Part shown: one piece after another, positions 1 to 41,912 of the stretch
Numbering within the stretch: the first letter of the stretch is position 1
Layout: each line of letters opens with the position of its first letter
NCBI GenBank assembly: GCA_964536195.1
Contig: CAZHVO010000002.1
Coordinates: 1 to 51,189 of the forward strand
DNA: 51,189 bases
Direction: 5' to 3'
Source of the DNA: an uncultured Planctomycetia bacterium
Lineage (GTDB): Bacteria; Omnitrophota; Gorgyraeia; Duberdicusellales; 4484-171
The notes under the pieces: generated by a model
Seen by the model: only the letters and a program-made list of their open reading frames with translations
Database searches by the model: none
What the model was told of the DNA's origin: nothing
Program-made: the position numbers and the translations under genes

Positions 1-35
1 TCAAACCAAAGCCAAGCTTAGATACTAAACAAAAG

Positions 36-107
36 TTGCCCCGTCTGGACTCGAACCAGAAATACTTGATCCAGAATCAAGGGTGTTACCGATTACACCA
101 CGGGGCA
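36..107 (-). tRNA. tRNA-Gln (anticodon CUG)
   Basis: The reverse complement folds as a cloverleaf. Acceptor stem TGCCCCG/CGGGGCA has U1-A72, as in bacterial tRNA-Gln. D stem GTGT/ACAC. Anticodon stem CTTGA/TCAAG with loop TTCTGGA (anticodon CTG). T arm TCTGG-TTCGAGT-CCAGA. No CCA is encoded. Confidence 0.9.
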
Positions 108-280: not shown

Positions 281-1405
281 TCATAACGCAAAAATCCATT
301 TTTTGAAAAACACATCTATTATAGAATATTCATTTTTTTCTTTATCTACTAAATCTTTATCCCTGAGACTTTGCAAAATTCGTTGAAGCGTAGATGCTGA
401 CCCAAGATTATGCTTTTGAAGGTATTCATGAGAGAATATCTGTTCACCAGCCAAGGTTTTAGCTAAAGCTATAAGGGCTTGTCTTTGCCTAATAGTTAGT
501 GAATCCCAACATGCTTCATACGTAGACGAAGCTCGCTCTAGCAAAAGGTCTCTGCTTTCTGCAAAGTCTTGGCTTTCAATATTTTTTCTATCCATTGTTC
601 TTTCCCAAATAATATGACAAAGGTATTGAAAATAATAGGGGTGCGTTTCGCATTCTTTTATTACTTCACTTAGCAATTCTCTAGAAATAACTTTACCACT
701 TTGCTTAAATTTATGTTGTGCAAACTTCAAAAGCTCCTCGTCTTTTATTTTGCATAAAGGAAAAGATTTGCCACTCTTGTAGAAAGGTTTGCTGGGATTG
801 TTAAATATATCAAAAATAAGATGTTTCTTGCTCCCCATAAATATATATGAAATATTCTTATGTTTCTGAAACGAAGAACGCATCATTTTTTGGACTTTAT
901 CAGTTTTAAATAAACTTATCTGCTGAAATTCGTCAAAACAAACAACTACTTTTTTCTTTTTGGATTTGGAGTATCTCTCTACACTCTCTAATACGTCTCC
1001 TAACGAAGGGAGGATTTCGCTTTTCTTTACGTCTATACTCCAAGAATAATTGCCTAAGTTATCTATGCTAACTGTCGGTCTAATCCTTGTAAAAATCTTG
1101 CTAATATCTTTTACTTTTTTGGTGAATTTTCCATAAATTGTCTCTACTATAACTTTACCATAAAGACGAACAAAGTCCTCTTCTGTCAATACAGGGTATA
1201 AATCAACGTATATGGCAAGTATTCCTCCTCTTTGACACTTATCAAGAACCCTTTTAAGTAACGAGGTTTTGCCAAATCTCCTTTGGGAAAACACAATAAC
1301 ATTCTGACTGTTAAAGATATCACGACAGAGCTCTTTAGTTTCCTCTTCCCTGTCACAAAAGCTATCCCCAGAAACTTCTTTCCCGTATACGAATGGGTTT
1401 TTCAT
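281..1405 (-). CDS. AAA-type ATPase of the archaeal-ATPase (PF01637-like) family with a C-terminal winged-helix (DUF234-like) tail
   Basis: Walker A in QRRFGKTSLL and Walker B in KVVVCFDEFQ. The N-terminal NPFVYGKEV..F.DREEE motif is typical of this family. The C-terminal segment LQRILQSLRDKDLVDKEKNEYSIIDVFFKKWI looks like a wHTH. Confidence 0.7.
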   Translation of the reverse strand: MKNPFVYGKEVSGDSFCDREEETKELCRDIFNSQNVIVFSQRRFGKTSLLKRVLDKCQRGGILAIYVDLYPVLTEEDFVRLYGKVIVETIYGKFTKKVKDISKIFTRIRPTVSIDNLGNYSWSIDVKKSEILPSLGDVLESVERYSKSKKKKVVVCFDEFQQISLFKTDKVQKMMRSSFQKHKNISYIFMGSKKHLIFDIFNNPSKPFYKSGKSFPLCKIKDEELLKFAQHKFKQSGKVISRELLSEVIKECETHPYYFQYLCHIIWERTMDRKNIESQDFAESRDLLLERASSTYEACWDSLTIRQRQALIALAKTLAGEQIFSHEYLQKHNLGSASTLQRILQSLRDKDLVDKEKNEYSIIDVFFKKWIFAL

Positions 1406-1691: not shown

Positions 1692-1719
1692 TTGACAAAT
1701 AAGGGAAAAATGCAATATT
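1692..1719 (+). promoter_or_regulatory. Candidate sigma-70 promoter for the fibre locus
   Basis: TTGACA (1692-1697), 16-nt spacer, AATATT (1714-1719) preceded by TG at 1711-1712 (extended -10), about 130 nt upstream of the 1850 start. Confidence 0.35.
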
Positions 1720-1849: not shown

Positions 1850-3229
1850 ATGAAAAGAAACACGAGTTTAGTAACATTTTTATTAATCTGCTTTCTGCTT
1901 CCCCTGAACACATGGGCTGCAGCAAGCCTCTCAGTAACTCCTCTCGAAGGTGGTAGTAGCCTTCGCTTTGGAAGAATAACTTCCGGTAACACAATCAGCA
2001 AACAAGTCCGAGTAAGAGTTACTTCTGACTTAGGAGTAAAGTATCAGGTCGAACAAAGACTTCTTGAACCTCTACGAAACTCCAGAGGCGAATCATTAAA
2101 TACTGATGCTTTTACTTTCTATACCCTCAGAGGCTCAAACTTAACTGGCAGTCTTTATCAAGACACACCCTACAGAGCCGATACCTTCAGAAAAATTCTT
2201 TATGTTTCAGCTGCTGCCGGTACCGGTGATTCTTTTTCAGTTATCTATTCAATTGACCCCAGCAAAATAAATATCTCGGGAAGTTTCTCGGGCAGGATTT
2301 CATTTACTTTCACTCCTCTAGGCGCCACTGGTACCCAAAGAGAAGTTATCCTCAATGTTTACTTTGAAACTAAAAAGAACTTCCAGGCCAGCTTAAAAAC
2401 ATCTTCTCAAAGCTCTCGATCCTTAAGGCTCTCTCTAGATAAGGACCAATTAAAAGGTTACTTACAAATCAGCACTGAAGGCTCCCTAGGGCAAAAATAC
2501 GAGATAAGACAAGTGGTTCAAGAACCATTTAAAAATGAGAAGGGAGAAGTTATGCCCTTAGAACTAGTTAAAATCTCAGCATCAAGCAATAAAGGCCAAA
2601 TTTACGCTTCCTCGCCCACACCTCTGGCTAGAAAGCCCATCCTAGTATACGGTTCCCAGGCCCAAGGACAAGGCGATGAAATCACAGTTAATTTTGCTGT
2701 CGATACCAAAGACCTTGCAAATCTACCCAGTGGACACTTTAAAGCCCTAGTATTATATAATGTTGAATCTTCTGGTTCACTGGTCGAAAGACTTCCCCTA
2801 GATGTATCTTTAGAAGTAAAGCCTACATTTGATATTGAAGTCGTCTCTGAGTCAGTAGGTAGTCTATACTTTCGGAACTTAAAGCCAGATTCAGGTTCAA
2901 TAGAAAAAGAAGTACTGGTTAAAGTCAAAACTAATCTTAATCGGCCCTATAATGTTATTCAAAACCTAAACGCTCCGCTTGCTAATCAGAAAGGAAATAC
3001 TATACCTTTGAACTTCTTCCGCTTAAGGCAGGAGAAAGGCAAGGATAATCCAGGAAATATAATTTTTTCTCAATTTTCTCCTTTAAGTTTAGGAGATACT
3101 AGAGTTTTTGCTTCTAATTCAGCTGGTGATTCTTCAGAGTTTAAAATCATTTATTCTTTGGAGGTTCCAAGGGATATGGTTGGCGGAGACTACTTTACAG
3201 GGTTAAACTACTCTTTAGTAGAGAAATAG
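1850..3229 (+). CDS. Secreted three-repeat pilin-like / adhesin-like protein
   Basis: Signal peptide (LLICFLLPLNTWAAAS). Three repeats of roughly 140 aa each carry a K/P-Y-x-[IV]-x-Q core (VKYQVEQ, QKYEIRQ, RPYNVIQ) followed by P[LF]xNxxG. Each repeat ends in an alternating hydrophobic strand (GRISFTFTPL, GHFKALVLYNV, GDYFTGLNYSLV). Confidence 0.6.
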   Translation: MKRNTSLVTFLLICFLLPLNTWAAASLSVTPLEGGSSLRFGRITSGNTISKQVRVRVTSDLGVKYQVEQRLLEPLRNSRGESLNTDAFTFYTLRGSNLTGSLYQDTPYRADTFRKILYVSAAAGTGDSFSVIYSIDPSKINISGSFSGRISFTFTPLGATGTQREVILNVYFETKKNFQASLKTSSQSSRSLRLSLDKDQLKGYLQISTEGSLGQKYEIRQVVQEPFKNEKGEVMPLELVKISASSNKGQIYASSPTPLARKPILVYGSQAQGQGDEITVNFAVDTKDLANLPSGHFKALVLYNVESSGSLVERLPLDVSLEVKPTFDIEVVSESVGSLYFRNLKPDSGSIEKEVLVKVKTNLNRPYNVIQNLNAPLANQKGNTIPLNFFRLRQEKGKDNPGNIIFSQFSPLSLGDTRVFASNSAGDSSEFKIIYSLEVPRDMVGGDYFTGLNYSLVEK

Positions 3230-3262
3230 ATTATAAAATTAAGAAAAAGGAGGTGAATTAGT

Positions 3263-3892
3263 ATGAAGAAATTGATTGCAGCTTTAGTGTTAATCTCACT
3301 TGCAGTAGGCTCAATGAGTATTTGTCTGGCAGCATCGACAGCCAGCGTAGGCATTCAAGCTACTGTTCCAGAACAATTGGAATTAGTTAGCTGGATTCGC
3401 TATGCTCCTCCGGGAGTTGATCCTTACGGCACAGGCTCAGGGGATGCCACAAGTTTAGACTTTGGTACCCTGGTCTTTGATGACACCTATAATATATGGA
3501 AACCGACGAGATACTTTACGGTATTTCTTCTGGCTTCCTCATCAGGAAGGAAGTATAGGATTCAACAGACAAATATAGGCTTTTCTCTAGGTGCCACTGA
3601 TCTTAATAACAGCTTGATTGTGACTCCTGATTATCAGTCCGGTGACGAGATAGTAACAGGAACTTCTCAAGGTTCTATGCCGGGAGGAGACAGCTACGGC
3701 GCCAAGGATTTAGCTTTGGGTGTCAACAAGGTAGTTTATAATGGCAATTCAGGATTATCAAGAATAGTAAGAGCATACTATGGCCTAGCTACAGGAGAAT
3801 CCGGTGAGCCCACAGGGGCAGAACCAATCACTGCAGACCAACTCTCAGGAACATATTCGGGAACAGTAACTTTTTCTGCTGTTCTCCAATAA
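3263..3892 (+). CDS. Secreted single-domain pilin-like subunit, paralogous to the repeats of the preceding gene
   Basis: Strong RBS (AAGGAGG) and a signal peptide (LISLAVGSMSICLAAS). It has SLDFGTL, the RKYRIQQ core and a C-terminal strand GTYSGTVTFSAVLQ. That strand resembles the terminal beta-strand of chaperone-usher / SCPU-type pilins. Confidence 0.55.
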   Translation: MKKLIAALVLISLAVGSMSICLAASTASVGIQATVPEQLELVSWIRYAPPGVDPYGTGSGDATSLDFGTLVFDDTYNIWKPTRYFTVFLLASSSGRKYRIQQTNIGFSLGATDLNNSLIVTPDYQSGDEIVTGTSQGSMPGGDSYGAKDLALGVNKVVYNGNSGLSRIVRAYYGLATGESGEPTGAEPITADQLSGTYSGTVTFSAVLQ

Positions 3893-3940
3893 TGGTGAGT
3901 TGTAAAGACATAGTGTAAAGCTTTTAAAAAAAATATACTC

Positions 3941-4028
3941 TACAAAGATGGCCACCAGTAAATTGCCCGGATAAACACAAAAATTATGTGTTAATCTCGG
4001 TTTAAAAAGTACTGTGGTCATCTTTGTA
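3941..4028 (+). promoter_or_regulatory. Long-range intercistronic stem-loop between the pilin-like gene and the chaperone-like gene
   Basis: Arms TACAAAGATGGCCACCAGTA (3941-3960) and TACTGTGGTCATCTTTGTA (4010-4028) are complementary apart from a few mismatches. They enclose an inner hairpin AACACA-AAAATTA-TGTGTT (3974-3992). The element ends 13 nt before the GAGGAG RBS of the next gene. Confidence 0.5.
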
Positions 4029-4051
4029 TCTAGTAAAAGTGAGGAGATAGG

Positions 4052-4849
4052 TTGTTTAAAAGAGTAATTTTCTTAACTTTAGTCTTTTTGTTACCCTTGT
4101 CAGCATTTGCCTTAAGGATTGATAATCCTAAGGTCAAGCTCCAGCTCTCGCCAAGTGATAACTACCAGGGAGCTATTATTGTAGAAAACCCTTCTAGCGA
4201 TGAGGTTTCGGTAAAGGCATATTTAGAGGACTTTACCTATGTTGCTCCTTTTGACGGCGCTAAAGAGTTCTATGCCCCGGGAACAACAAAAATATCCCTT
4301 TCAAAATGGATAAATTTTTCTCCTCAGGAATTCACATTACGGCCTTTCTCACAGCGAAGAGTTAATTTCTCGGTAAGCCCTATGTCTTCTTTTACTTCTG
4401 TCCATTGCGGAGTTCTCTTCTTTGAGACATCTATTGGAACTACCTATGAGAATGGCCAAGCAATAAATGTCTTAGGCCGAGTAGGTTCTTTGTTCTTTAT
4501 TGAACCAAAAGATAAGAAAAAACAAGCAACTTTCACCGGGATCAAAGGTTCCTCTTACTCTTTAATCGGTGATTTTATTAATTCCGGTAATTCATTTATC
4601 CATGCTCAAGGCACCTCCTATACTCTGGACAGGGCAGGCATGGTCAAAGATAGAAGTGCTCTAGAGGAACTGTATCTTTTACCTAATGATAGTACCCGAT
4701 TGCAAATAGTCCTATCTGACGATTTAGGACCCGGTACCTATACGATGGTAATTACTTTTGATTTAGAAGAGGATAATTCTTTAATCAAAGAAATTGATTT
4801 CTCTCTTTCAGGTTCAGGAGAAGTTACCGTCCTAGATGAGAGAAATTAA
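4052..4849 (+). CDS. Periplasmic two-domain Ig-like protein; candidate pilus assembly chaperone (PapD-like / DUF916-like logic)
   Basis: TTG start 5 nt after GAGGAG, with a signal peptide. The all-beta pattern has two halves (IIVENPSSDEVSVKAY...FSPQEFTLRPFSQRRVNFSV...GVLFFE, then NSGNSFIHAQGTSYTL...LLPNDSTRLQIVL...GTYTMVITF). The position between subunit genes and the OM protein gene fits a chaperone. Confidence 0.4.
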   Translation: MFKRVIFLTLVFLLPLSAFALRIDNPKVKLQLSPSDNYQGAIIVENPSSDEVSVKAYLEDFTYVAPFDGAKEFYAPGTTKISLSKWINFSPQEFTLRPFSQRRVNFSVSPMSSFTSVHCGVLFFETSIGTTYENGQAINVLGRVGSLFFIEPKDKKKQATFTGIKGSSYSLIGDFINSGNSFIHAQGTSYTLDRAGMVKDRSALEELYLLPNDSTRLQIVLSDDLGPGTYTMVITFDLEEDNSLIKEIDFSLSGSGEVTVLDERN

Positions 4850-7815
4850 TGCCGAGAAAAATCAAAGTTTCCTTATTATTGTTAGTTTTCTTCTTTTGCT
4901 TCTCCTTCATCCTCTATCCTCAATCTCTCTCCTATAAGTATTTAATGGAATTAGGCCAATGGGAACTGAGAGAAAATAATTACCAAGAAGCTCTCCAGTA
5001 CTTTCAAATTGCTCAATTAATGGAGCCTGAGTCAGAAGAAGTCTTAAGCTATATTAACTTAATAAAGCGGGCTCTTGAAGGCAGAGTTATTAGTGATGAC
5101 TCATACGATCAGGGAGAAGTCGCCAGCTTAATGGGGTCTGTTCTAGAAAAGAAGAGTGACAGTAAGAGGAAACAGCGAGAAGTAGCCCGTGATGCTCTGA
5201 CTTCTTGGGAGAAAAAAATAGTTAAGACAAAATTAGATCAGACAGGAACCATTGTCCTTCCTCCTCTATATATTAAAACCAGCCAAGAAATAGAAGAAGA
5301 AAAAGAAATAGCAGAGATAAAAAGGAAAGAAAAAGAAGAAAGAAAAGTATTAGTGGAAGCGATGGAGCAGATCAAGAAGCCAATAACAAGAGAAAAAGAG
5401 GTAGCCTTACCTAAGGCAACAAAAGTGATAACTACTGGAAAAAAGAAAACAGCTAAGAAAGGCCAAGAAGAAGTAATCTACCTTACCTCTGAAACCAGGG
5501 GTGAATTCCCCCTAACTATAAAGATAGCTCCCAAAGAATCATTTATAATTGATTCTGAAACCCTAGAGAGATTTCTGATAGTCTCTCCCGGTGTAATTGA
5601 AGTAAATAAGCTTACTACCGGCACCCTACGGATTAAAGCCATTAATTTCGGCTCTTCCTACTTACATGTTTGGGATGATGTCGGCCGATGGACCTTTAAT
5701 ATAAAGATTATCCCTCCACGAGTAATAGTAAAGACAGAACAACTATGGGAAAAACCTGAAGGCTTTAAATTCATGTATAGTTCTGACTGGAGCCAGTATT
5801 ACCGGGGAGCTGACTTTGATGACATGGAGAGACAAACCTTAACCTATGATCAAGGAGCAGCTATCGTCGGACCAACCCCCTATGGAGAACTAGATGCTTC
5901 CGTGAACTGGTCACGCCTTGATCAGGAAACAGATGTAACCGGCTATACTGTAGGTTTAAGTAAGGGCCGTTTCTTGGATTTTAAAGATTTTTACATCCGT
6001 GGTTTTGATTTTAGAGAAAACTTATCGCCTTTATCCTTCCCGGGAGAAACCTTAGAAGGTATAATTTTTAAGTCTCCAGCTTTTAATGAAAAAATCGAAT
6101 ACACTCTACTTTACGGGCAACAAAAACAATACTCATCAGGAATCATCTCTCCAGGAGTTATCGAAGAAGAAGATGCTTATATTGAAGGCTTACGGCTAAG
6201 TTTATTCCCCTATGAGAAAAATAAGTTTTTCTTCACCTATGCTCATGGATATGGCAACGACAGAGAAGATTATCTTAAAAGTAAGGTTTTCTCTCTCCAA
6301 AGTGAGCATAATTTTAAAAATATTGATATTATAAGTGAGATAGCCTCAGATGAGGATTCTATAGGAGCTACCATTTCTTCGAGCCTGCGGCTTTCTCCTA
6401 AACTTAAGTTAAATCTCTCTTTTCGCGATATTGGGAAGGATTTTGTTACCATCTCAGGTAGACCGCCTAATATCGGAGAAATTGGAGGTATTATTGGCCT
6501 TGATTGGAATCCCAACGATAAAATCTCTTTAAACTCAAGCCTAGATGTCTATAGAGATAGAGAATTTTTTAATCCCGGCAGCGAAGATAAGCCTAACTTT
6601 AATTGGAATAATTATTTGAATCTAAGATTATCAGATACTTCAAGCTTAGCTACCAGCCTCTATTATATTAACTCTCCGGGCCTTCTCTCGCCCCAGAGAA
6701 GCGTAAATGCTACTAGTACCTATAGCAAAAGGTTTGATTGGAACTTCTTTGGCGATAGATCAGTTCACACATTCTTAGGCTATAATTACCAGAGAAGTAT
6801 TAATCCTCTCTCGCCAACCTCTGATTATACTCGTAATGGCCTATTGAGTGGTTTGCGTCTTCAGTTAACAAATGATCTCTATTATTACCTTAACTGCAAC
6901 CTCTCCTGGGTAGAAGAGCTCTCTACTAGTGAGAATACAAAACCCTTGATTACTGAGACCGGAGTAGATTTCTACCATACTTTTAATCCTACTCTTTCTT
7001 CTAATTTACGCATCAGCTACCGCGACGAAGAAAATGCAACTGCCCTACACTCTTTTCTCTCCGGAGAAGATAGCCTTGAAGGAAACATAAACCTTACCTA
7101 TAGCCCTAAGAAGAATACCGAGTTCTTCCTTAATGGAAGAATAAGAAATGTCTGGGCTGAGAATACTGACACAGAAGAATACATTGAAACTGAAATAAGA
7201 TTAGGGGCACGCTTGTCCTGGGATAGCTTCTTCAGCTGGTCACCGGAAGCAATAATAGAAGGTTTTGTATTTAAAGACTCTAATAATAATGGTGAAAAAG
7301 ATGATGATGAGGTTGGAATACCAGGAATAGAAATAATTGCCGGCCCTAAGAAGGCTATAAGCGCTAAAGGCGGAAAGTTTACTGCTAAGGTAAAGGCCAA
7401 AAAGGTAATTGCTAATATCAACTTTAACAGCATACCTAAGGGCTATATTTTGACTACTCCGGCATCTTTTGACCTAGATACCTCTACTGGCGATAGCTAT
7501 AGCATAAATTTTGGCATATCGCCTCAATCAGGTATATATGGGGTTGTTTTTTATGACTCTAACGGAAATGATAAGCTAGATAAAGAAGATACTACTATTC
7601 CGGGAATAAAGATAATCCTTGATCAAAAGAAAACAGCGATTACCAATAGTGAAGGTGTTTATTTCTTTGGTGGTATTCCTACTGGAACCCATAATTTAAC
7701 CTTTGATGTTAATTCTCTACCTTTAAAATATTTGCCTAAGGTTTCGATAAAAAAAGAGGTAGATGTTTCTGAAGGGCTTACCTACACCTACCATATCCCC
7801 TTACAAAAGAAATAA
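4849..7815 (+). CDS. Large outer-membrane protein: TPR, K/E-rich linker, secretin-N-like (pilus formation N-terminal) domain, predicted beta-barrel, two SdrD-B-like Ca-binding Ig domains
   Basis: Start overlaps the upstream stop (TAATG at 4847-4851) and a signal peptide is present. The TPR-like stretch is NNYQEALQYFQIAQLMEPESEE. LIVSPGVIEVNKLTTGTLRIKAINFGSSYLHVWDDVGRWTFNIKI resembles the CpaC/RcpA N-terminal domain. About 500 aa are rich in aromatic/Gly alternating strands. The C terminus has two repeats with FKDSNNNGEKDDDEVGIPGIEI and FYDSNGNDKLDKEDTTIPGIKI. Confidence 0.6.
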   Translation: MPRKIKVSLLLLVFFFCFSFILYPQSLSYKYLMELGQWELRENNYQEALQYFQIAQLMEPESEEVLSYINLIKRALEGRVISDDSYDQGEVASLMGSVLEKKSDSKRKQREVARDALTSWEKKIVKTKLDQTGTIVLPPLYIKTSQEIEEEKEIAEIKRKEKEERKVLVEAMEQIKKPITREKEVALPKATKVITTGKKKTAKKGQEEVIYLTSETRGEFPLTIKIAPKESFIIDSETLERFLIVSPGVIEVNKLTTGTLRIKAINFGSSYLHVWDDVGRWTFNIKIIPPRVIVKTEQLWEKPEGFKFMYSSDWSQYYRGADFDDMERQTLTYDQGAAIVGPTPYGELDASVNWSRLDQETDVTGYTVGLSKGRFLDFKDFYIRGFDFRENLSPLSFPGETLEGIIFKSPAFNEKIEYTLLYGQQKQYSSGIISPGVIEEEDAYIEGLRLSLFPYEKNKFFFTYAHGYGNDREDYLKSKVFSLQSEHNFKNIDIISEIASDEDSIGATISSSLRLSPKLKLNLSFRDIGKDFVTISGRPPNIGEIGGIIGLDWNPNDKISLNSSLDVYRDREFFNPGSEDKPNFNWNNYLNLRLSDTSSLATSLYYINSPGLLSPQRSVNATSTYSKRFDWNFFGDRSVHTFLGYNYQRSINPLSPTSDYTRNGLLSGLRLQLTNDLYYYLNCNLSWVEELSTSENTKPLITETGVDFYHTFNPTLSSNLRISYRDEENATALHSFLSGEDSLEGNINLTYSPKKNTEFFLNGRIRNVWAENTDTEEYIETEIRLGARLSWDSFFSWSPEAIIEGFVFKDSNNNGEKDDDEVGIPGIEIIAGPKKAISAKGGKFTAKVKAKKVIANINFNSIPKGYILTTPASFDLDTSTGDSYSINFGISPQSGIYGVVFYDSNGNDKLDKEDTTIPGIKIILDQKKTAITNSEGVYFFGGIPTGTHNLTFDVNSLPLKYLPKVSIKKEVDVSEGLTYTYHIPLQKK

Positions 7816-8079
7816 TTACTTTATCAAGACAGTCTTTAAAAGGACTTTTTCGTTTCCCCGGATTACCTCCTCTGTAGCTATCAATCTTTCTTCTTCAACT
7901 ACGACCTTATACTCTCTTTCTTGGCTGGCCTCTTCTTCCTCTGCCAGTGGAACAGCTTCTTTATTGATCTCGACCCTTGAAGGAATAGTAAAGGAAGCTC
8001 TAATGACTGCAGTATTACCGGCCGATGCAGATATAGGAATAATGAATAAAAGCATAGAGATTAAAATATACTTACTCAT
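7816..8079 (-). CDS. Small secreted protein (87 aa), function unknown
   Basis: Signal peptide (ILISMLLFIIPISASAG) and an acidic central stretch. Its ATG sits inside the last codons of the upstream ORF (GAGCATGAGTAAG), directly after GGAGGAG, which indicates translational coupling. Confidence 0.55.
   Translation of the reverse strand: MSKYILISMLLFIIPISASAGNTAVIRASFTIPSRVEINKEAVPLAEEEEASQEREYKVVVEEERLIATEEVIRGNEKVLLKTVLIK
7831..7850 (+). terminator. Weak candidate terminator after the 988-aa gene
   Basis: AGTCT-TTAAAA-GGACT followed by TTTTT. The stem is short and the element lies inside the 3' end of the convergent small ORF. Confidence 0.25.
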
Positions 8080-8311
8080 GCTCTCCTCCTTTCTTGTTAC
8101 TGATCTCTAATTTCAAATCCTGAATTATTTGCTTTTTTAACCAAAGATCTTTAGATACATGAACTATTTCTTTAATTACGTGGGAACGGGCAATCTTCTT
8201 GCCGGTTACAAAGTAGAGGTCTTTTATTATCTTGTCCAGAAAGTCCAATTCCTCCCTATTTATGAAGGAAACTACTTTGAAAAGTATTTGTTTTTTGTTG
8301 TATTCTTTCAT
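8072..8311 (-). CDS. Small ribbon-helix-helix-like protein (79 aa), candidate transcription regulator
   Basis: The pattern is beta-strand / helix / G-x-x-x-RS / helix: KQILFKVVSF - REELDFLDKIIKDL - TGKKIARSHVIKEIVHV. It is the first gene downstream of the riboswitch-like leader. Confidence 0.45.
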   Translation of the reverse strand: MKEYNKKQILFKVVSFINREELDFLDKIIKDLYFVTGKKIARSHVIKEIVHVSKDLWLKKQIIQDLKLEISNKKGGEHE

Positions 8312-8324
8312 CTTTCTAAAATTA

Positions 8325-8366
8325 AAAAAGCCCTTTTAAGGCACGTTCGACACCTAAAAGGGCTAA
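8325..8366 (-). terminator. Second terminator-like hairpin in the leader
   Basis: On the minus strand, GCCCTTTTAGG-loop-CCTTAAAAGGGC is followed by TTTTTTAATTTT. It ends 14 nt before the ATG at 8311. Confidence 0.5.
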
Positions 8367-8370
8367 CAAT

Positions 8371-8403
8371 AAAAAAAACCCTAAGGCAACTATCTTAGGG
8401 TTT
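8371..8403 (-). terminator. Rho-independent terminator; likely expression platform of the riboswitch
   Basis: On the minus strand, AAACCCTAAG-ATAGTTGC-CTTAGGGTTT is followed by an 8-T run. The left arm could alternatively pair with TTAGG at the 5' edge of the aptamer. Confidence 0.65.
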
Positions 8404-8411
8404 ACTAACTT

Positions 8412-8497
8412 CCCCCCTGGGTAACTCCTCTATCCTAATAGGACAGGTAGTTTTGCGTCTCCCAATTACTCGGGATTTGCCTTTATCCGAAGAGACC
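8412..8497 (-). ncRNA. Candidate c-di-GMP-I (GEMM-I) riboswitch aptamer
   Basis: The minus strand reads GGTCTCTTCGGATAAAGGCAAATCCCGAGTAATTGGGAGACGCAAAACTACCTGTCCTATTAGGATAGAGGAGTTACCCAGGGGGG. It contains the hallmark GGCAAA, a hairpin, GACGCAAA(A/G)C, a second hairpin (CTACCTGTCC / GGATAGAGGAG) and GTTACC, in GEMM-I order and spacing. This is a motif match by eye only. Confidence 0.6.
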
Positions 8498-8757: not shown

Positions 8758-9381
8758 TTATTTTTTAGCGAATTTTCTCTTAAATAGTCCTGTTCCCAGT
8801 AGGCCAATAGTGAGGAGAAATAAAGAAGCTGGTTCCGGTATCGGTTCGGTATGAATCTTAAGTATTATTTTTTGGTTAGTGAAATGACAGTCAGGATCAA
8901 AGCCAAGCCCGAAATTACCATCAGCTATTGCCTGGCTAAGTTTTGCTATTTCAAAGGGGCTAAAATTATAACTATAGTCCTCAGGAGGATTTACCAATCG
9001 CCCTAAATTTGAATCCCAATACTCATTATCATCAGTCCAGATAAAAAGCTGTTCACCGTTTGGTGCAAAATAATCTCCTGAGAAAAAGTCAAAGAATGCA
9101 CTAATACCTTCAGAAGCATCCTGAAACAAACGAACATACAGCCTATCGCTGTCTTCAATTATCCAATTATTAATATTGAGAAAATCTAAGGTTGCGCCGG
9201 TAATTACCTCACCAGTATCTAACTGCTGCCTAATGCCCCAGGAATAAGCCATTATGTGTGGTAAATCATACAAATCTTCTCGGGAGGGGATAAATGTATA
9301 GACAACAGCATAAGAGGCTTCAGGTATGGCCCCAAACATTAATATAGTCAAAAATAAAATTATGAGAAATCGCTTCATCAT
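8758..9381 (-). CDS. PEP-CTERM sorting-domain protein (exosortase cargo)
   Basis: N-terminal signal peptide. The C terminus IPEPASLFLLTIGLLGTGLFKRKFAKK is a PEP motif, TM helix and basic tail. RBS is AAGGAG. Confidence 0.8.
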   Translation of the reverse strand: MMKRFLIILFLTILMFGAIPEASYAVVYTFIPSREDLYDLPHIMAYSWGIRQQLDTGEVITGATLDFLNINNWIIEDSDRLYVRLFQDASEGISAFFDFFSGDYFAPNGEQLFIWTDDNEYWDSNLGRLVNPPEDYSYNFSPFEIAKLSQAIADGNFGLGFDPDCHFTNQKIILKIHTEPIPEPASLFLLTIGLLGTGLFKRKFAKK

Positions 9382-41282: not shown

Positions 41283-41912
41283 ATGAAAAAATTAACCTTT
41301 ATCGTACTTTCGTTCCTATCATTTTATTTACTCACTAGCTCTGGTTGTACAAAAGCAGTTGACACATCTAACTTGCCATTTACTTCAGCGATCATTAAAT
41401 ATATGTATACCGGGGCAAGAAACGGAAGTGAAACGGTTTATATAGACCTAAAAGCTAATAAAATTGCTGTGGAAAAATCTATAACCACGACTTTTCAAGG
41501 TATAGTTGATAAAGACGAGACACTAGATATTTACGATGGAAAAGTTGCTTATGGTATCCATTTAGGTAGAAAACAAGCAATTAAAATGGTCCGGAAAGGT
41601 AAAATAATTCCTGAGATGTTTGGCGAAAAAAATTATTCAGGCTATTACAAAGAAGAAGATTCTTTTTTAGGGAAAATATGTAAGGTCTACCAAACTCCCC
41701 AGGCAACAATCTACTTTTGGAATGGTATCTCTTTAAAAGAAGAAATGACAGTTCCCCTTATGAATGTTGAATATAGGAAAGAGGCGATAAGTATTGAGTT
41801 AAATACCCGCATCCCCGGGAAAAAATTCAAACTTCCTTCCGGAATCAAAGTTACAACAACAGAAAAATTAATTAAAGAGTTTAAGAAAAAATCTAAACAA
41901 CTCCGGAAATAA
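41283..41912 (+). CDS. Hypothetical lipoprotein
   Basis: Lipobox LLTSSGC and RBS AGGAGG. An extended -10 element (TGTTATAAT) lies at 41204-41212. Confidence 0.55.
   Translation: MKKLTFIVLSFLSFYLLTSSGCTKAVDTSNLPFTSAIIKYMYTGARNGSETVYIDLKANKIAVEKSITTTFQGIVDKDETLDIYDGKVAYGIHLGRKQAIKMVRKGKIIPEMFGEKNYSGYYKEEDSFLGKICKVYQTPQATIYFWNGISLKEEMTVPLMNVEYRKEAISIELNTRIPGKKFKLPSGIKVTTTEKLIKEFKKKSKQLRK

What the first reader, a model, noticed from the sequence alone, without database searches (positions are those of the whole stretch)
1850..7815. Four-gene secreted-fibre locus with chaperone-usher logic but no recognisable usher
Four co-directional genes all encode signal-peptide proteins:
- a three-repeat pilin-like protein;
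- a single-domain paralogue whose C-terminal strand (GTYSGTVTFSAVLQ) resembles the terminal strand of chaperone-usher / SCPU-type pilins;
- an all-beta, two-halved periplasmic protein in the position where a PapD-like chaperone normally sits;
- a 988-aa outer-membrane protein, translationally coupled to the third gene through TAATG.

The order subunit(s), chaperone, pore is the architecture of archaic (Csu/SCPU-type) chaperone-usher pili. The pore candidate, however, has none of the usher features I can recognise. It combines TPR, a secretin-N-like domain, a barrel and SdrD-B-like domains. This could be an undescribed surface-fibre assembly pathway in an uncultivated diderm lineage.
Basis: partly seen in the sequence, partly recalled or inferred. 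Interest (0 to 1): 0.78.

Follow-up and report, generated by a model that had tools for sequence, protein, structure and literature searches.

The report
Divergent chaperone-usher fibre locus in Omnitrophota
This is a surface-fibre assembly gene cluster found across the uncultivated phylum Omnitrophota: no sequence model recognises it, but predicted structures show a pilus chaperone and an usher-like outer-membrane pore, and a c-di-GMP riboswitch always sits next to it.

Summary
The 459-aa protein has three homologous repeats. The 209-aa protein is a profile-level paralogue of one repeat. The third and fourth genes overlap in TAATG.

No Pfam, NCBIfam or PDB sequence search finds a chaperone, usher or pilin. 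Structure prediction changes that picture:
- The 265-aa protein (pLDDT 94) has a two-domain Ig fold. Its best PDB matches are enterococcal WxLIP and the chaperone-usher (CU) chaperones CfaA, FimC, Caf1M, EcpB and CsuC.
- The 988-aa protein's 11 best PDB matches are all FimD or PapC ushers. It shows no plug-sized insertion and carries an atypical TPR plus PF13629 N-terminal module.

So the claim "no recognisable usher" is true for sequence only.

The cassette is conserved in at least 78 Omnitrophota genomes with differing flanks, and it is larger than reported. A convergent ~87-aa secreted mini-protein follows the usher-like gene in 73 of 78 loci, sometimes with a ~79-aa gene. Its N-terminus resembles the N-terminal strand of the 209-aa subunit. 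A c-di-GMP-I riboswitch precedes it in 73 of 81 sources, usually with an intrinsic terminator.

Verdict: a deeply divergent, phylum-specific chaperone-usher-type pathway, not a new kind of pathway. Donor-strand exchange and the mini-protein's role are inferred, not shown.

The parts
1692..1719 (+). Promoter-like site (TTGACA, 16 nt, AATATT, with TG) about 130 nt upstream of the first gene.
   Evidence: Consensus scan, 10/12 matches. The number of such sites in the region is not above the shuffle expectation, so this is only a candidate.
1850..3229 (+). Large subunit, 459 aa: signal peptide plus three homologous Ig-type repeats (about 24-175, 176-325, 326-459). Repeats 1 and 2 are each followed by a ~17-aa strand-like tail. 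Repeat 3 ends at the F-strand-like motif. Proposed tip or fibrillum subunit.
   Evidence: ORF. Repeats: BLASTP E 2e-10 to 5e-8 and hhalign 99.3-99.8%. Tails and ends. The only PDB profile hit is the engineered donor-strand-complemented CfaE-CfaB fusion 3f83, E 0.054. No Pfam hit.
3263..3892 (+). Small subunit, 209 aa: signal peptide, an N-terminal strand (SVGIQATVP), one repeat-type domain, and a C-terminus that ends at the invariant G-x-Y-x-G-x-V-T-F motif. Strong Shine-Dalgarno sequence (AAGGAGG). Proposed polymerising major subunit.
   Evidence: ORF and RBS. Family of 52 close and 557 representative proteins. Invariant G196, Y198, G200. Homology to each repeat at 93-96%. No Pfam or PDB match.
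3936..4034 (+). Long stem-loop in the 159-nt spacer between the small-subunit and chaperone genes. Possible transcript-stabilising or attenuating element that sets the subunit to machinery ratio.
   Evidence: RNA fold: -41.9 kcal/mol, z = -3.9 against shuffles. No U tract follows. The spacer length varies widely among loci and conservation of the hairpin was not tested.
4052..4849 (+). Periplasmic chaperone-like protein, 265 aa, TTG start after GAGGAG. Two Ig-like domains and no C-terminal membrane helix.
   Evidence: AF2 pLDDT 94.3, pTM 0.83. Foldseek: WxLIP 9i1y/9i25 at E 8e-12, then CfaA (TM-score on target 0.66), FimC, Caf1M, SafB, EcpB and CsuC. The family profile hits EcpB 5dfk at E 0.011 across the F1-G1-like hairpin. 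11/52 members hit PF06030.
4849..7815 (+). Usher-like outer-membrane protein, 988 aa. N-terminal hydrophobic helix; TPR-like helices at about 25-76; low-confidence charged region 79-206; PF13629 beta domain 208-287; barrel 307-792 with about 26 long strands and no plug-sized insertion; two SdrD_B beta-sandwich domains 801-988.
   Evidence: AF2 pLDDT 81.3. The 11 best Foldseek matches are all FimD or PapC. Pfam on 32 members. No usher is found by sequence.
7816..8079 (-). Convergent 87-aa secreted mini-protein (p87). It has a signal peptide, a conserved N-terminal strand (consensus G-x-S-x-T-I-x-V-S-C-T-I-P-x-I-P-G-V-N), a variable acidic linker and a short conserved C-terminal strand. Its stop codon abuts the stop codon of the usher-like gene.
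   Evidence: ORF. Present downstream in 73/78 loci; stop-to-stop gap has a median of 10 nt. Alignment. The mature N-terminus aligns with the mature N-terminus of the small subunit: hhalign 71%, E 3.7e-5. The p87 HMM hits the small subunit at E 4e-8. No Pfam hit.
8072..8311 (-). 79-aa cytoplasmic-looking protein (p79) that overlaps the p87 start. Conserved core RVVTFLNREEVDFLDK...SR. Possibly a small DNA-binding regulator; this is by eye only.
   Evidence: ORF. Homologues in 30 of the 78 loci with the usher-like gene, always between the riboswitch and p87. No Pfam hit.
8330..8403 (-). Two tandem intrinsic-terminator hairpins with U tracts, between the aptamer and p79. This is the expression platform.
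   Evidence: Terminator scan and own scan. The aptamer and the first terminator coexist in the minimum-free-energy fold.
8416..8490 (-). c-di-GMP-I-type riboswitch aptamer. It scores best as the GGC variant, RF03167.
   Evidence: Rfam: 60 bits against a gathering score of 59, E 1e-11. The same element is found at the same place in 73 of 81 sources.

Best explanation
The locus encodes a deeply divergent chaperone-usher-type pathway that builds a surface fibre in Omnitrophota.

**Proposed mechanism (inferred throughout)**
1. Both subunits are exported by Sec.
2. In the periplasm the 265-aa two-domain Ig protein holds them by completing their Ig folds, which appear to lack a final strand.
3. The 988-aa protein is the assembly pore. 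Its PF13629 beta domain, possibly with the TPR module, would take the role of an usher N-terminal domain. Its two C-terminal beta-sandwich domains would take the role of CTD1 and CTD2. The ~26-strand barrel would be the conduit.
4. The 459-aa protein would enter first, as a tip. Its first two domains are completed in cis by the ~17-aa strand that follows each. It has no spare N-terminal strand. Its last domain ends at the F-strand motif, leaving a groove open.
5. The 209-aa protein would polymerise behind it, using its extra N-terminal strand as the donor.

**Proposed regulation (inferred)**
A c-di-GMP riboswitch with an intrinsic terminator drives a convergent unit whose transcript must run into the 3' end of the usher-like gene. 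That unit encodes an 87-aa secreted mini-protein. It carries a subunit-like N-terminal strand but no pilin body, so it is a candidate chain terminator or cap. In 30 of the 78 loci with the usher-like gene the unit also encodes a 79-aa putative regulator.

**Shown:** the folds of the chaperone-like and usher-like proteins, the repeat structure, the synteny, and the riboswitch with its terminator.

**Inferred:** donor-strand complementation and exchange, the order of assembly, the role of p87, and the direction of the switch.
For: **Chaperone**
- AF2 model: pLDDT 94.3.
- Foldseek probability is 1.00 for WxLIP and for more than 30 CU chaperone chains, including CfaA, FimC, Caf1M, SafB, EcpB, DraB and CsuC.
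- The family profile hits EcpB at E 0.011, with R-[IV]-G-[ST]-[IL]-x-x-x-x-P aligned.
- PF06030 is found in 11/52 members.

**Usher**
- The 11 best structural matches are all FimD or PapC, E 1.8e-20 to 6e-14. The next class, TonB-dependent receptors, starts at E 1e-10.
- Full-length ushers score far better than the barrel-only entries 3ohn and 2vqi (4e-10), so the flanking domains contribute to the match.

**Subunits**
- There are three homologous repeats plus a single-domain paralogue.
- Repeats 1 and 2 have a strand-like tail. Repeat 3 and the small subunit stop at the invariant G-x-Y-x-G strand.
- The only PDB hit of the large-subunit profile is the engineered cis-donor-strand CfaE-CfaB fusion. 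Its F strand, linker and donor strand align at both repeat junctions (E 0.054).

**Operon**
- TAATG coupling and Shine-Dalgarno sites.

**Conservation**
- 115 GTDB genomes encode a relative of the usher-like protein; the best 80 loci were fetched and 78 sources were analysed for gene order.
- The order big, small (one or two copies), chaperone, usher, then convergent p87 holds in nearly all loci that are long enough.
- The flanks differ between loci.

**Regulation**
- The riboswitch is present in 73 of 81 sources.
- A terminator follows it in 48 of 56 cases examined.
- The p87 N-terminus aligns to the small-subunit N-terminus.
Against: - No sequence method links any of the four proteins to CU families. 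There is no PF00345, PF02753, PF00577, PF13953, PF13954, PF00419 or PF05229 hit. No usher is found even with the family profile against PDB.
- Global TM-scores to ushers are low (0.29 on the query, 0.40 on the target; barrel-only 0.49). Foldseek is permissive for large barrels.
- The barrel appears to have about 26 strands rather than 24, with no plug domain between strands 6 and 7. A defining usher feature is therefore missing or replaced.
Their incomplete Ig fold is inferred from sequence patterns and from two marginal hits: E 0.054 and E 0.097. The second was not reproduced with another profile.
- The best structural match of the chaperone-like protein is WxLIP. WxLIP is described as a stable partner of WxL proteins, not as a recycling chaperone.
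Confidence: 0.65

Rival explanations
1. A diderm counterpart of the Gram-positive WxL cluster, not a pilus. The 265-aa protein would be a stoichiometric WxLIP-like partner that stays bound to a large and a small surface protein. The 988-aa protein would only export or anchor the complex. No polymer is made.
For: - WxLIP (9i1y, 9i25) is the top Foldseek match of the 265-aa model.
- PF06030 is found in 11/52 members.
- WxL clusters are defined as one small WxL protein, one large WxL protein and one WxLIP (PMC10599100; PMC9772566). This mirrors the large, small and Ig-pair content here.
- AF2 predicts that WxLIP donates a strand to WxL.
- One subunit profile weakly hit the WxL chain of 9i25 at its C-terminal strand (E 0.097).
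Against: - The 265-aa protein has no C-terminal membrane helix, whereas WxLIP has one.
- There is no W-x-L motif and no WxL-domain (PF13731) hit in the subunits.
- The weak WxL hit was not reproduced with a mature-only profile.
- TM-scores are higher to CfaA (0.54 and 0.66) than to WxLIP (0.47).
- An usher-like pore is translationally coupled to the gene. Monoderm WxL systems have none.
Confidence: 0.15
2. An ordinary member of an already described chaperone-usher clade (for example archaic Csu/SCPU or alternate CFA/I) that merely looks odd because of low G+C content and divergence.
For: The fold matches to CU chaperones and ushers, the gene order, and the C-terminal G-x-Y-x-G strand.
Against: - None of 52 chaperone members, 32 usher-like members, about 77 small-subunit members or 19 large-subunit members reaches any CU Pfam model, even at lenient thresholds.
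- The family profile of the usher-like protein finds no usher in PDB.
- The N-terminal TPR plus PF13629 module, the SdrD_B C-terminal domains and the absence of a plug insertion are not features of the usher structures matched here.
Confidence: 0.07
3. The 988-aa protein is a substrate-uptake or export channel unrelated to fibre assembly, of the TonB-dependent, SusC-like or polysaccharide-export type. The upstream Ig-fold proteins would be binding proteins or accessory lipoprotein-like factors.
For: - CarboxypepD_reg-type domains (30/32 members) also occur in SusC-like transporters; that association rests on my own knowledge.
- TonB-dependent receptors are the second class of structural matches.
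- A PEP-CTERM protein lies nearby.
Against: - Ushers outrank TonB-dependent receptors by about 10 orders of magnitude in E-value.
- The beta-sandwich domains are C-terminal rather than N-terminal, and no plug-sized insertion is seen in the barrel.
- The tight co-occurrence with a PapD-fold protein and paralogous secreted subunits is unexplained by this reading.
- The PEP-CTERM neighbour is not conserved in other loci.
Confidence: 0.05

Closest known systems
Alternate / class 5 chaperone-usher pili (CFA/I: CfaA chaperone, CfaB major pilin, CfaC usher, CfaE tip) and the E. coli common pilus chaperone EcpB
   Same: - CfaA gives the highest TM-scores of all chaperone matches (0.54 on the query, 0.66 on the target).
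- EcpB is the only PDB sequence hit of the chaperone profile (E 0.011).
- The large-subunit profile's only PDB hit is the CfaE-CfaB donor-strand fusion. The G-x-Y-x-G-x-I F strands and the following donor strands align.
- Subunits, chaperone and pore are encoded together in one co-directional operon.
   Different: - There is no significant sequence similarity to any CU Pfam family.
- The tip-like subunit consists of three tandem pilin-type domains, apparently completed in cis, and not an adhesin domain plus a pilin domain.
- The usher-like protein has TPR and PF13629 at its N-terminus, SdrD_B domains at its C-terminus, about 26 strands and no plug insertion.
- Here both subunit genes precede the chaperone gene. 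My recollection that the CFA/I operon runs cfaA-B-C-E, chaperone first, is from memory and was not checked.
- It is found in Omnitrophota. Every chaperone and usher structure matched here is from Proteobacteria.
Classical chaperone-usher pili (Fim, Pap: FimC/FimD, PapD/PapC)
   Same: - FimD and PapC are the 11 best structural matches of the 988-aa model.
- FimC and related chaperones match the 265-aa model.
- The layout of N-terminal domain, barrel and two C-terminal beta-sandwich domains is shared.
   Different: - Global superposition is poor (TM 0.29-0.40).
- There is no PF00577 signal.
- No plug domain is seen.
- Presence of the conserved Arg8/Lys112 cleft pair could not be checked.
WxL clusters of Firmicutes (small WxL, large WxL, WxLIP = DUF916 + DUF3324 + membrane helix)
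   Same: - WxLIP is the best Foldseek match of the 265-aa protein.
- PF06030 hits occur in 11/52 family members.
- Both have a content of one large protein, one small protein and one Ig-pair protein.
- WxLIP is predicted to donate a strand to its partner (PMC10599100).
   Different: - WxL systems are monoderm, bind peptidoglycan and have no outer-membrane pore.
- WxLIP is membrane-anchored, whereas the 265-aa protein has no membrane helix.
- The subunits here have no W-x-L motifs and no WxL Pfam hit.
Archaic (sigma) chaperone-usher pili: Csu, CupE, SCPU/spore-coat-U type.
   Same: - CsuC is among the chaperone fold matches (5d6h, E 1e-7).
- Several subunit genes precede the chaperone and usher genes, as in csu. 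The csu order is from my own knowledge.
- Both have a C-terminal G-x-Y-x-G-type strand.
   Different: - There is no PF05229 (SCPU) or DUF4402 hit in about 77 small-subunit or 19 large-subunit members.
- CsuC ranks well below CfaA, FimC and Caf1M.
- No Csu pilin or usher turns up in any PDB search.
c-di-GMP-I (GEMM-I) riboswitches upstream of pilus or adhesin genes, and antisense-oriented c-di-GMP riboswitches
   Same: - The aptamer passes the Rfam gathering score and is followed by an intrinsic terminator.
- c-di-GMP riboswitches have the strongest tendency of any riboswitch class to lie antisense to a neighbouring gene (PMC9943018).
   Different: - Here the riboswitch does not precede the fibre operon. 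It precedes a convergent mini-gene whose stop abuts the stop of the usher-like gene.
- That arrangement is fixed across the phylum.
- The window's copy scores best as the GGC variant, so its ligand is less certain.

Membership tests
Chaperone-usher pathway | Periplasmic chaperone with two Ig-like domains (PapD fold). | tested here: met
   AF2 pLDDT 94.3. Foldseek probability 1.00 to CfaA, FimC, Caf1M, SafB, EcpB, DraB and CsuC.
Chaperone-usher pathway | Chaperone recognised by the PapD sequence families (PF00345 PapD_N, PF02753 PapD_C). | tested here: not met
   No hit in the window protein or in any of 52 family members. There is only a marginal profile hit to EcpB, E 0.011.
Chaperone-usher pathway | Conserved basic pair in the chaperone cleft (Arg8 and Lys112 in PapD) that anchors the subunit C-terminus. 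| tested here: inconclusive
   K71 and R201 are invariant and R143 is nearly invariant. R143 aligns with the Arg of the G1-like strand of EcpB. Model coordinates could not be inspected.
Chaperone-usher pathway | Outer-membrane usher of family PF00577, with PapC_N and PapC_C. | tested here: not met
   No hit in 32/32 members at E <= 0.1. The family profile against PDB finds only TPR and SdrD domains.
Chaperone-usher pathway | Usher architecture by fold: periplasmic N-terminal domain, large barrel, two C-terminal beta-sandwich domains. | tested here: met
   Model layout. The 11 best PDB matches are all FimD or PapC, over about 800 columns. Caveat: TM-scores are low and this is a predicted structure.
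Chaperone-usher pathway | 24-strand barrel gated by a plug domain inserted between strands 6 and 7. | tested here: not met
   DSSP of the model gives about 26 long strands. The largest internal loop is 426-443, 18 residues. What occludes the lumen is unknown.
Chaperone-usher pathway | Subunits with an Ig-like fold that lacks the last strand, ends at the F strand, and has an N-terminal donor strand. | tested here: inconclusive
   - The small subunit and repeat 3 end at the invariant G-x-Y-x-G strand, while repeats 1 and 2 carry an extra strand-like tail.
- There is a marginal alignment to the donor-strand-complemented CfaE-CfaB fusion (E 0.054).
- No structure model of the subunits could be made.
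Chaperone-usher pathway | Subunit, chaperone and usher genes in one co-directional operon. | tested here: met
   The order is conserved in nearly all of the 78 loci.
Chaperone-usher pathway | Donor-strand complementation and exchange, and a surface fibre, demonstrated. | not testable with these tools
WxL cluster (Firmicutes) | WxLIP: DUF916 (PF06030) plus DUF3324 Ig pair. | tested here: inconclusive
   WxLIP is the best fold match (E 8e-12, TM 0.47). PF06030 is found in 11/52 members (best 2.7e-5) but not in the window protein.
WxL cluster (Firmicutes) | C-terminal transmembrane helix on WxLIP. | tested here: not met
   The protein ends in beta strands at residue 265.
WxL cluster (Firmicutes) | Small and large partner proteins carrying a WxL domain with two Trp-x-Leu motifs (PF13731). 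| tested here: not met
   No WxL Pfam hit. The homologous position reads T-F-S or T-F-T. A weak hit to 9i25_A (E 0.097) was not reproduced.
c-di-GMP-I riboswitch (RF01051 / RF03167) | Aptamer sequence and structure reaching the Rfam gathering score. | tested here: met
   The window scores 60 bits against 59 for RF03167. Related loci score up to 76 bits against 35 for RF01051.
c-di-GMP-I riboswitch (RF01051 / RF03167) | Binding of c-di-GMP and ligand-dependent control of the downstream genes. | not testable with these tools
   Needs in-line probing or reporter assays. The GGC variant label leaves ligand identity open for the window's copy.

The most novel reading that the evidence does not exclude
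The convergent 87-aa secreted protein is a donor-strand-only mini-subunit. Its pilin-like N-terminal strand would fill the open groove of the last subunit and so cap, terminate or release the fibre.

Its synthesis, together with antisense transcription into the 3' end of the usher-like gene, would be switched by a c-di-GMP riboswitch. The second messenger would then set fibre length or presence directly, through a chain terminator. No such mechanism is described for any chaperone-usher system that I know of.

In addition, the Omnitrophota chaperone family would link Gram-positive WxLIP proteins and Gram-negative pilus chaperones as one ancient strand-donating superfamily.
Probability: 0.2. Interest if true: 0.85.

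Novelty: new variant of a known kind. Interest (0 to 1): 0.64.

Why it matters
**Reach of the pathway.** Every chaperone and usher structure matched here comes from Proteobacteria. Here a CU-type machine occurs across an uncultivated phylum of mostly ultra-small, possibly host-dependent bacteria. The main genomic survey of that phylum discusses only type IV and Tad pili (PMC10066038). That gives Omnitrophota a further candidate attachment organelle.

**Annotation.** Four or five protein families are currently labelled "hypothetical". The subunit family alone has 557 representative clusters. All of them gain a testable functional assignment.

**Mechanism.** The usher-like protein has no plug insertion and a TPR plus secretin-N-type front end. 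The tip-like subunit looks like a natural version of the cis-donor-strand fusions that crystallographers engineer. Both would show which usher and pilin features are dispensable.

**Evolution.** The chaperone's equal resemblance to WxLIP and to CU chaperones bears on how monoderm and diderm strand-donation systems are related.

**Regulation.** The invariant pairing with a c-di-GMP riboswitch on a convergent mini-gene is an unusually clean, experimentally tractable case of second-messenger control of a surface fibre.

Tried and rejected
**Sequence searches that found nothing useful**
- Direct Pfam and NCBIfam scans of all four proteins gave nothing beyond SdrD_B, weak PF13629 and weak TPR.
- phmmer of the 265-aa and 988-aa proteins against PDB gave nothing relevant.
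- Small-subunit profiles against Pfam and PDB gave nothing. One profile (A5) gave Fab hits, which are signal-peptide artefacts, and a weak WxL hit at E 0.097. A mature-only profile (A6) gave no hit at all, so I do not rely on the WxL link for the subunits.
- The profile of the usher-like family against PDB gave only TPR and SdrD domains.
- Pfam scans of p79 and p87 gave nothing. The ribbon-helix-helix reading of p79 is by eye only.

**Attempts that failed technically**
- I tried to build a WxL family alignment for a profile-profile test. tblastn of a 9i25_A fragment against plasmids hit only one record (CP069367.1, labelled Klebsiella). That record has frameshifted, fragmented ORFs, so I abandoned the test.
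A 10-sequence alignment, A4, worked.
- One Rfam call exceeded the size limit and one script timed out.

**Readings considered and rejected**
- Secretin or Tad component. Only the small PF13629 domain is shared, and the barrel matches ushers, not secretins.
- TonB-dependent receptor. It ranks second and no plug-sized insertion is seen in the barrel.
- A further family member elsewhere in the window. There is none. The 209-aa ORF at 41283-41912 is unrelated.

**Not settled**
- The direction of the riboswitch. The aptamer and terminator are compatible in one fold, which argues for an OFF switch. No convincing antiterminator was identified.

Full report
**1.

The four ORFs lie exactly where stated, all on the + strand: 1850-3229 (459 aa), 3263-3892 (209 aa), 4052-4849 (265 aa, TTG start after GAGGAG) and 4849-7815 (988 aa).

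- Genes 3 and 4 overlap in TAATG.
- A strong AAGGAGG precedes gene 2.
- Each protein starts with a basic then hydrophobic segment. I read this from the sequence; no signal-peptide predictor was available.
- The three repeats of the 459-aa protein are real. Pairwise BLASTP gives E 2e-10 to 5e-8 and family-profile hhalign gives 99.3-99.8%.
- The 209-aa protein is not recognisably similar to the repeats by BLAST. Its family profile matches each repeat profile at 93-96% probability, E 1e-7 to 1e-9. "Single-domain paralogue" is therefore supported.
- Its C-terminal G-x-Y-x-G is invariant.

**2. Sequence methods see almost nothing**

- Pfam and NCBIfam give no hit for the first three proteins. For the fourth they give only SdrD_B (1.4e-11), weak PF13629 and weak TPR.
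- Scanning every member of the family alignments confirms the domain list of the 988-aa protein: SdrD_B in 32/32, PF13629 in 29/32, TPR_2 in 23/32. None of the 32 hits Usher, PapC_N or PapC_C.
- The family profile finds only TPR and SdrD chains in PDB.
- For the 265-aa family, 11 of 52 members touch PF06030 (WxLIP_PGBD, formerly DUF916; best 2.7e-5) and several touch other Ig-like families. None touches PapD_N or PapD_C.
- That family's profile hits a single PDB chain, the pilus chaperone EcpB, at E 0.011. The alignment runs across a long hairpin, with VLFFE against IVWFD and RVGSLFFIEP against RIGTILVVAP.
- The subunit families have no Pfam match.

**3. Predicted structures change the picture**

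*The 265-aa protein.* With a 52-sequence alignment it models at pLDDT 94.3 and pTM 0.83, as two all-beta domains with no C-terminal helix. Foldseek against PDB gives:
- WxLIP of Enterococcus faecium first (9i1y and 9i25, E 8e-12, TM 0.47);
- then a long run of CU chaperones: CfaA (TM 0.54 on the query, 0.66 on the target), FimC, Caf1M, SafB, YadV, EcpB, SfaE, DraB and CsuC, all at probability 1.00.

*The 988-aa protein.* With 32 sequences it models at pLDDT 81.3. The layout is:
- an N-terminal hydrophobic helix;
- TPR-like helices at about 25-76;
- a low-confidence charged stretch at 79-206;
- a small beta domain at 208-287, which is the PF13629 region;
- a barrel from 307 to 792, with about 26 long strands by DSSP and no insertion larger than 18 residues;
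- two beta-sandwich domains at 801-988.

Its 11 best PDB matches are all FimD or PapC ushers, with E 1.8e-20 to 6e-14 over about 800 columns. Barrel-only usher entries score 4e-10 (TM on target 0.45-0.49). The next class, TonB-dependent receptors, begins at 1e-10. Global TM-scores are low (0.29 and 0.40), as expected for a multi-domain comparison, and Foldseek is permissive with barrels. I therefore treat this as good but not conclusive evidence that the protein is an usher analogue or a remote homologue. The layout of N-terminal beta domain, barrel and two C-terminal sandwiches parallels NTD, barrel, CTD1 and CTD2. The plug insertion that defines ushers is not seen.

**4. The cassette is phylum-wide and larger than reported**

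*Taxonomy.* Named homologues are all Candidatus Omnitrophota. A scan of one genome per GTDB species found 115 loci that encode a relative of the 988-aa protein. Of the 80 retrieved, nearly all are titled Omnitrophota. Some are auto-named "uncultured Planctomycetia" or "Planctomycetales". One contig is binned as Methanosarcinales and one as Margulisiibacteriota, which are probably binning errors.

*Gene order.* HMM-based gene calling on these loci gives the same order almost everywhere: large subunit, one or two small subunits, chaperone-like, usher-like. Flanking genes differ between loci, so the cassette is the conserved unit.

*p87.* In 73 of 78 loci a small convergent gene follows at once. 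It is 87 aa in the window, at 8079-7816 on the minus strand. The gap between the two stop codons has a median of 10 nt. It is 10 nt or less in 37 loci, and the genes overlap in 6. The two transcription units therefore almost certainly overlap at their 3' ends.

*p79.* In 30 of the 78 loci a second small gene (79 aa, 8311-8072) lies just upstream of p87 on the same strand.

**5. A c-di-GMP riboswitch is part of the unit**

- Rfam finds a c-di-GMP-I-type aptamer at 8490-8416 on the minus strand. It scores 60 bits against a gathering score of 59 for the GGC variant.
- The same element sits at the same place in related loci, mostly scoring as standard c-di-GMP-I at up to 76 bits.
- A covariance model built from 12 copies finds it upstream of p87 or p79 in 73 of 81 sources. 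Five of the eight without it are contigs that end too early. L039, L023 and L035 carry tandem copies.
- In 48 of 56 cases examined a strong hairpin with a U tract follows within about 100 nt. The window has two.
- In the window the aptamer, with an extended P1, and the first terminator coexist in the minimum-free-energy fold. That is the layout of an OFF switch. I could not identify the antiterminator, so the direction remains an inference.
- In L059 and L074 an extra copy on the + strand precedes additional fibre genes.

**6. What the sequences suggest about the subunits (inference)**

- In the profile alignments, the F-strand-like motif (a-G-x-Y-x-G-x-I-x-Y) of repeats 1 and 2 is followed by about 17 further residues with an alternating hydrophobic pattern. 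Repeat 3 and the small subunit terminate at that motif.
- The mature large subunit has one strand before its L-R-F-G motif. The small subunit has two, so it has one extra N-terminal strand, SVGIQATVP.
- The large-subunit profile has a single PDB hit, at a marginal E of 0.054. It is 3f83, an engineered fusion in which CfaE and CfaB of CFA/I pili are completed in cis by the CfaB donor strand. At both repeat junctions the alignment places F strand, linker and donor strand (AGQYMGNIKITFTP...VEKNITVTASV) opposite the repeat's F strand and tail.
- Taken together, this suggests the 459-aa protein is a naturally cis-completed three-domain tip with an open last groove. The 209-aa protein would be the polymerising unit.

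**7. The mini-protein**

p87 homologues share four parts: a signal peptide, a conserved strand right after the cleavage site (G-x-S-x-T-I-x-V-S-C-T-I-P-x-I-P-G-V-N), a variable acidic linker and a short conserved C-terminal strand. With signal peptides removed, the p87 profile aligns from its residue 1 to residue 1 of the mature small subunit (hhalign 71%, E 3.7e-5). With them included, the p87 HMM hits the small subunit at 4e-8.

One reading is a protein that carries a pilin N-terminal strand but no pilin body. That would make it a candidate cap or chain terminator, made only when the riboswitch lets transcription through. This is the most novel reading and it is unproven. p79 has a conserved core (RVVTFLNREEVDFLDK...SR) that looks to me like a small DNA-binding protein, but Pfam gives nothing.

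**8. Comparison with known systems**

*How it works.* The best fit is a chaperone-usher pathway.

*Membership.* The fold-level features are met: the PapD-type chaperone, the usher-type domain layout and the operon. The sequence-family features and the plug are not met, and the subunit features are inconclusive. I therefore do not file it in any described CU clade.

*Nearest relatives.*
- By the weak signals available, the nearest is the CFA/I and ECP type.
- The chaperone-like protein resembles WxLIP of Firmicutes equally well. WxL clusters also consist of a small protein, a large protein and an Ig-pair protein that is predicted to donate a strand (PMC10599100 and PMC9772566).
- Differences from WxL systems are the missing membrane helix, the missing W-x-L motifs and the presence of an outer-membrane pore.

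*Literature.* I found no description of such a system in Omnitrophota. The main survey mentions type IV and Tad pili, and has no occurrence of 'fimbria' or 'c-di-GMP' in its main text.

**9. Verdict**

This is a real, conserved, phylum-specific cassette. It is a new variant of a known kind, not a categorically new pathway. The main rival is a non-polymerising, WxL-like surface complex (about 0.15).

Noticed in passing
window 8416-8490 (-), 8330-8403 (-), 8072-8311 (-), 7816-8079 (-): A c-di-GMP-I-type riboswitch (GGC variant by score) with two tandem terminators drives a 79-aa and an 87-aa gene convergent with the usher-like gene. The arrangement is conserved in about 73 related loci.
   Followed up: yes
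window 3936-4034 (+): A long, stable stem-loop (-41.9 kcal/mol, z -3.9) lies in the spacer between the small-subunit and chaperone genes. No U tract follows it. It may set the ratio of subunit to machinery transcripts. Its conservation was not tested, and the spacer length varies from under 0 to over 300 nt among loci.
   Followed up: partly
window 7815/7816; related loci: The stop codons of the usher-like gene and of convergent p87 abut. The median gap is 10 nt and the genes overlap in 6 loci. This leaves no room for terminators, so convergent transcripts should overlap and antisense interference is possible.
   Followed up: partly
L059 1411-1535 (+) and L074 2281-2412 (+): Additional c-di-GMP-type aptamers lie on the fibre-operon strand. 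Each is followed by a conserved 111-aa ORF (MRDLVFKNL... / MREMVLRNL...) and then by subunit genes.
   Followed up: partly
L039 11480-11723, L023 11413-11600, L035 6556-6731: Tandem riboswitch aptamers lie upstream of the p87 homologue in some genomes.
   Followed up: no
L063, L073, L074, L061, L076, and L015/L016/L017/L020/L050/L057/L064/L081: Some genomes duplicate parts of the cassette. Some have extra modules of small subunit plus chaperone. Others have two chaperone genes or two small-subunit genes in tandem.
   Followed up: no
L008 2008-4707, L066 11578-14325, L075 1055-3748: A second, very distant relative of the usher-like protein (about 900 aa, E 8e-6 to 3e-13 against the family HMM) lies next to the cassette in three genomes.
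   Followed up: no
window 8758-9381 (-): A 207-aa PEP-CTERM protein lies just beyond the riboswitch (PF07589 2.9e-5; NCBIfam PEP-CTERM models), which implies an exosortase system in this organism. It is not conserved next to the cassette in the other loci inspected.
   Followed up: no
window 281-1405 (-) and 35-107 (-): A STAND/ATPase_2-type NTPase (374 aa) has weak similarity to NCBIfam anti-phage models (DS8, 2.8e-5). It sits next to a tRNA-Gln, upstream of the cassette. The tRNA is also present in the closest relative, L001.
   Followed up: no
L019 (JAIWAR010000056.1) and L080 (DATJPP010000070.1): Complete cassettes lie on contigs binned as a Methanosarcinales archaeon and as Margulisiibacteriota. 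These are most likely binning errors. An Omnitrophota-host association or gene transfer was not examined.
   Followed up: no
L087 (CP069367.1, 91823-106052): A plasmid record labelled Klebsiella pneumoniae carries a 98.7%-identical copy of an Enterococcus faecium WxL-domain protein fragment, with frameshifted, fragmented ORFs. This is probably contamination or misassembly in the public record.
   Followed up: partly
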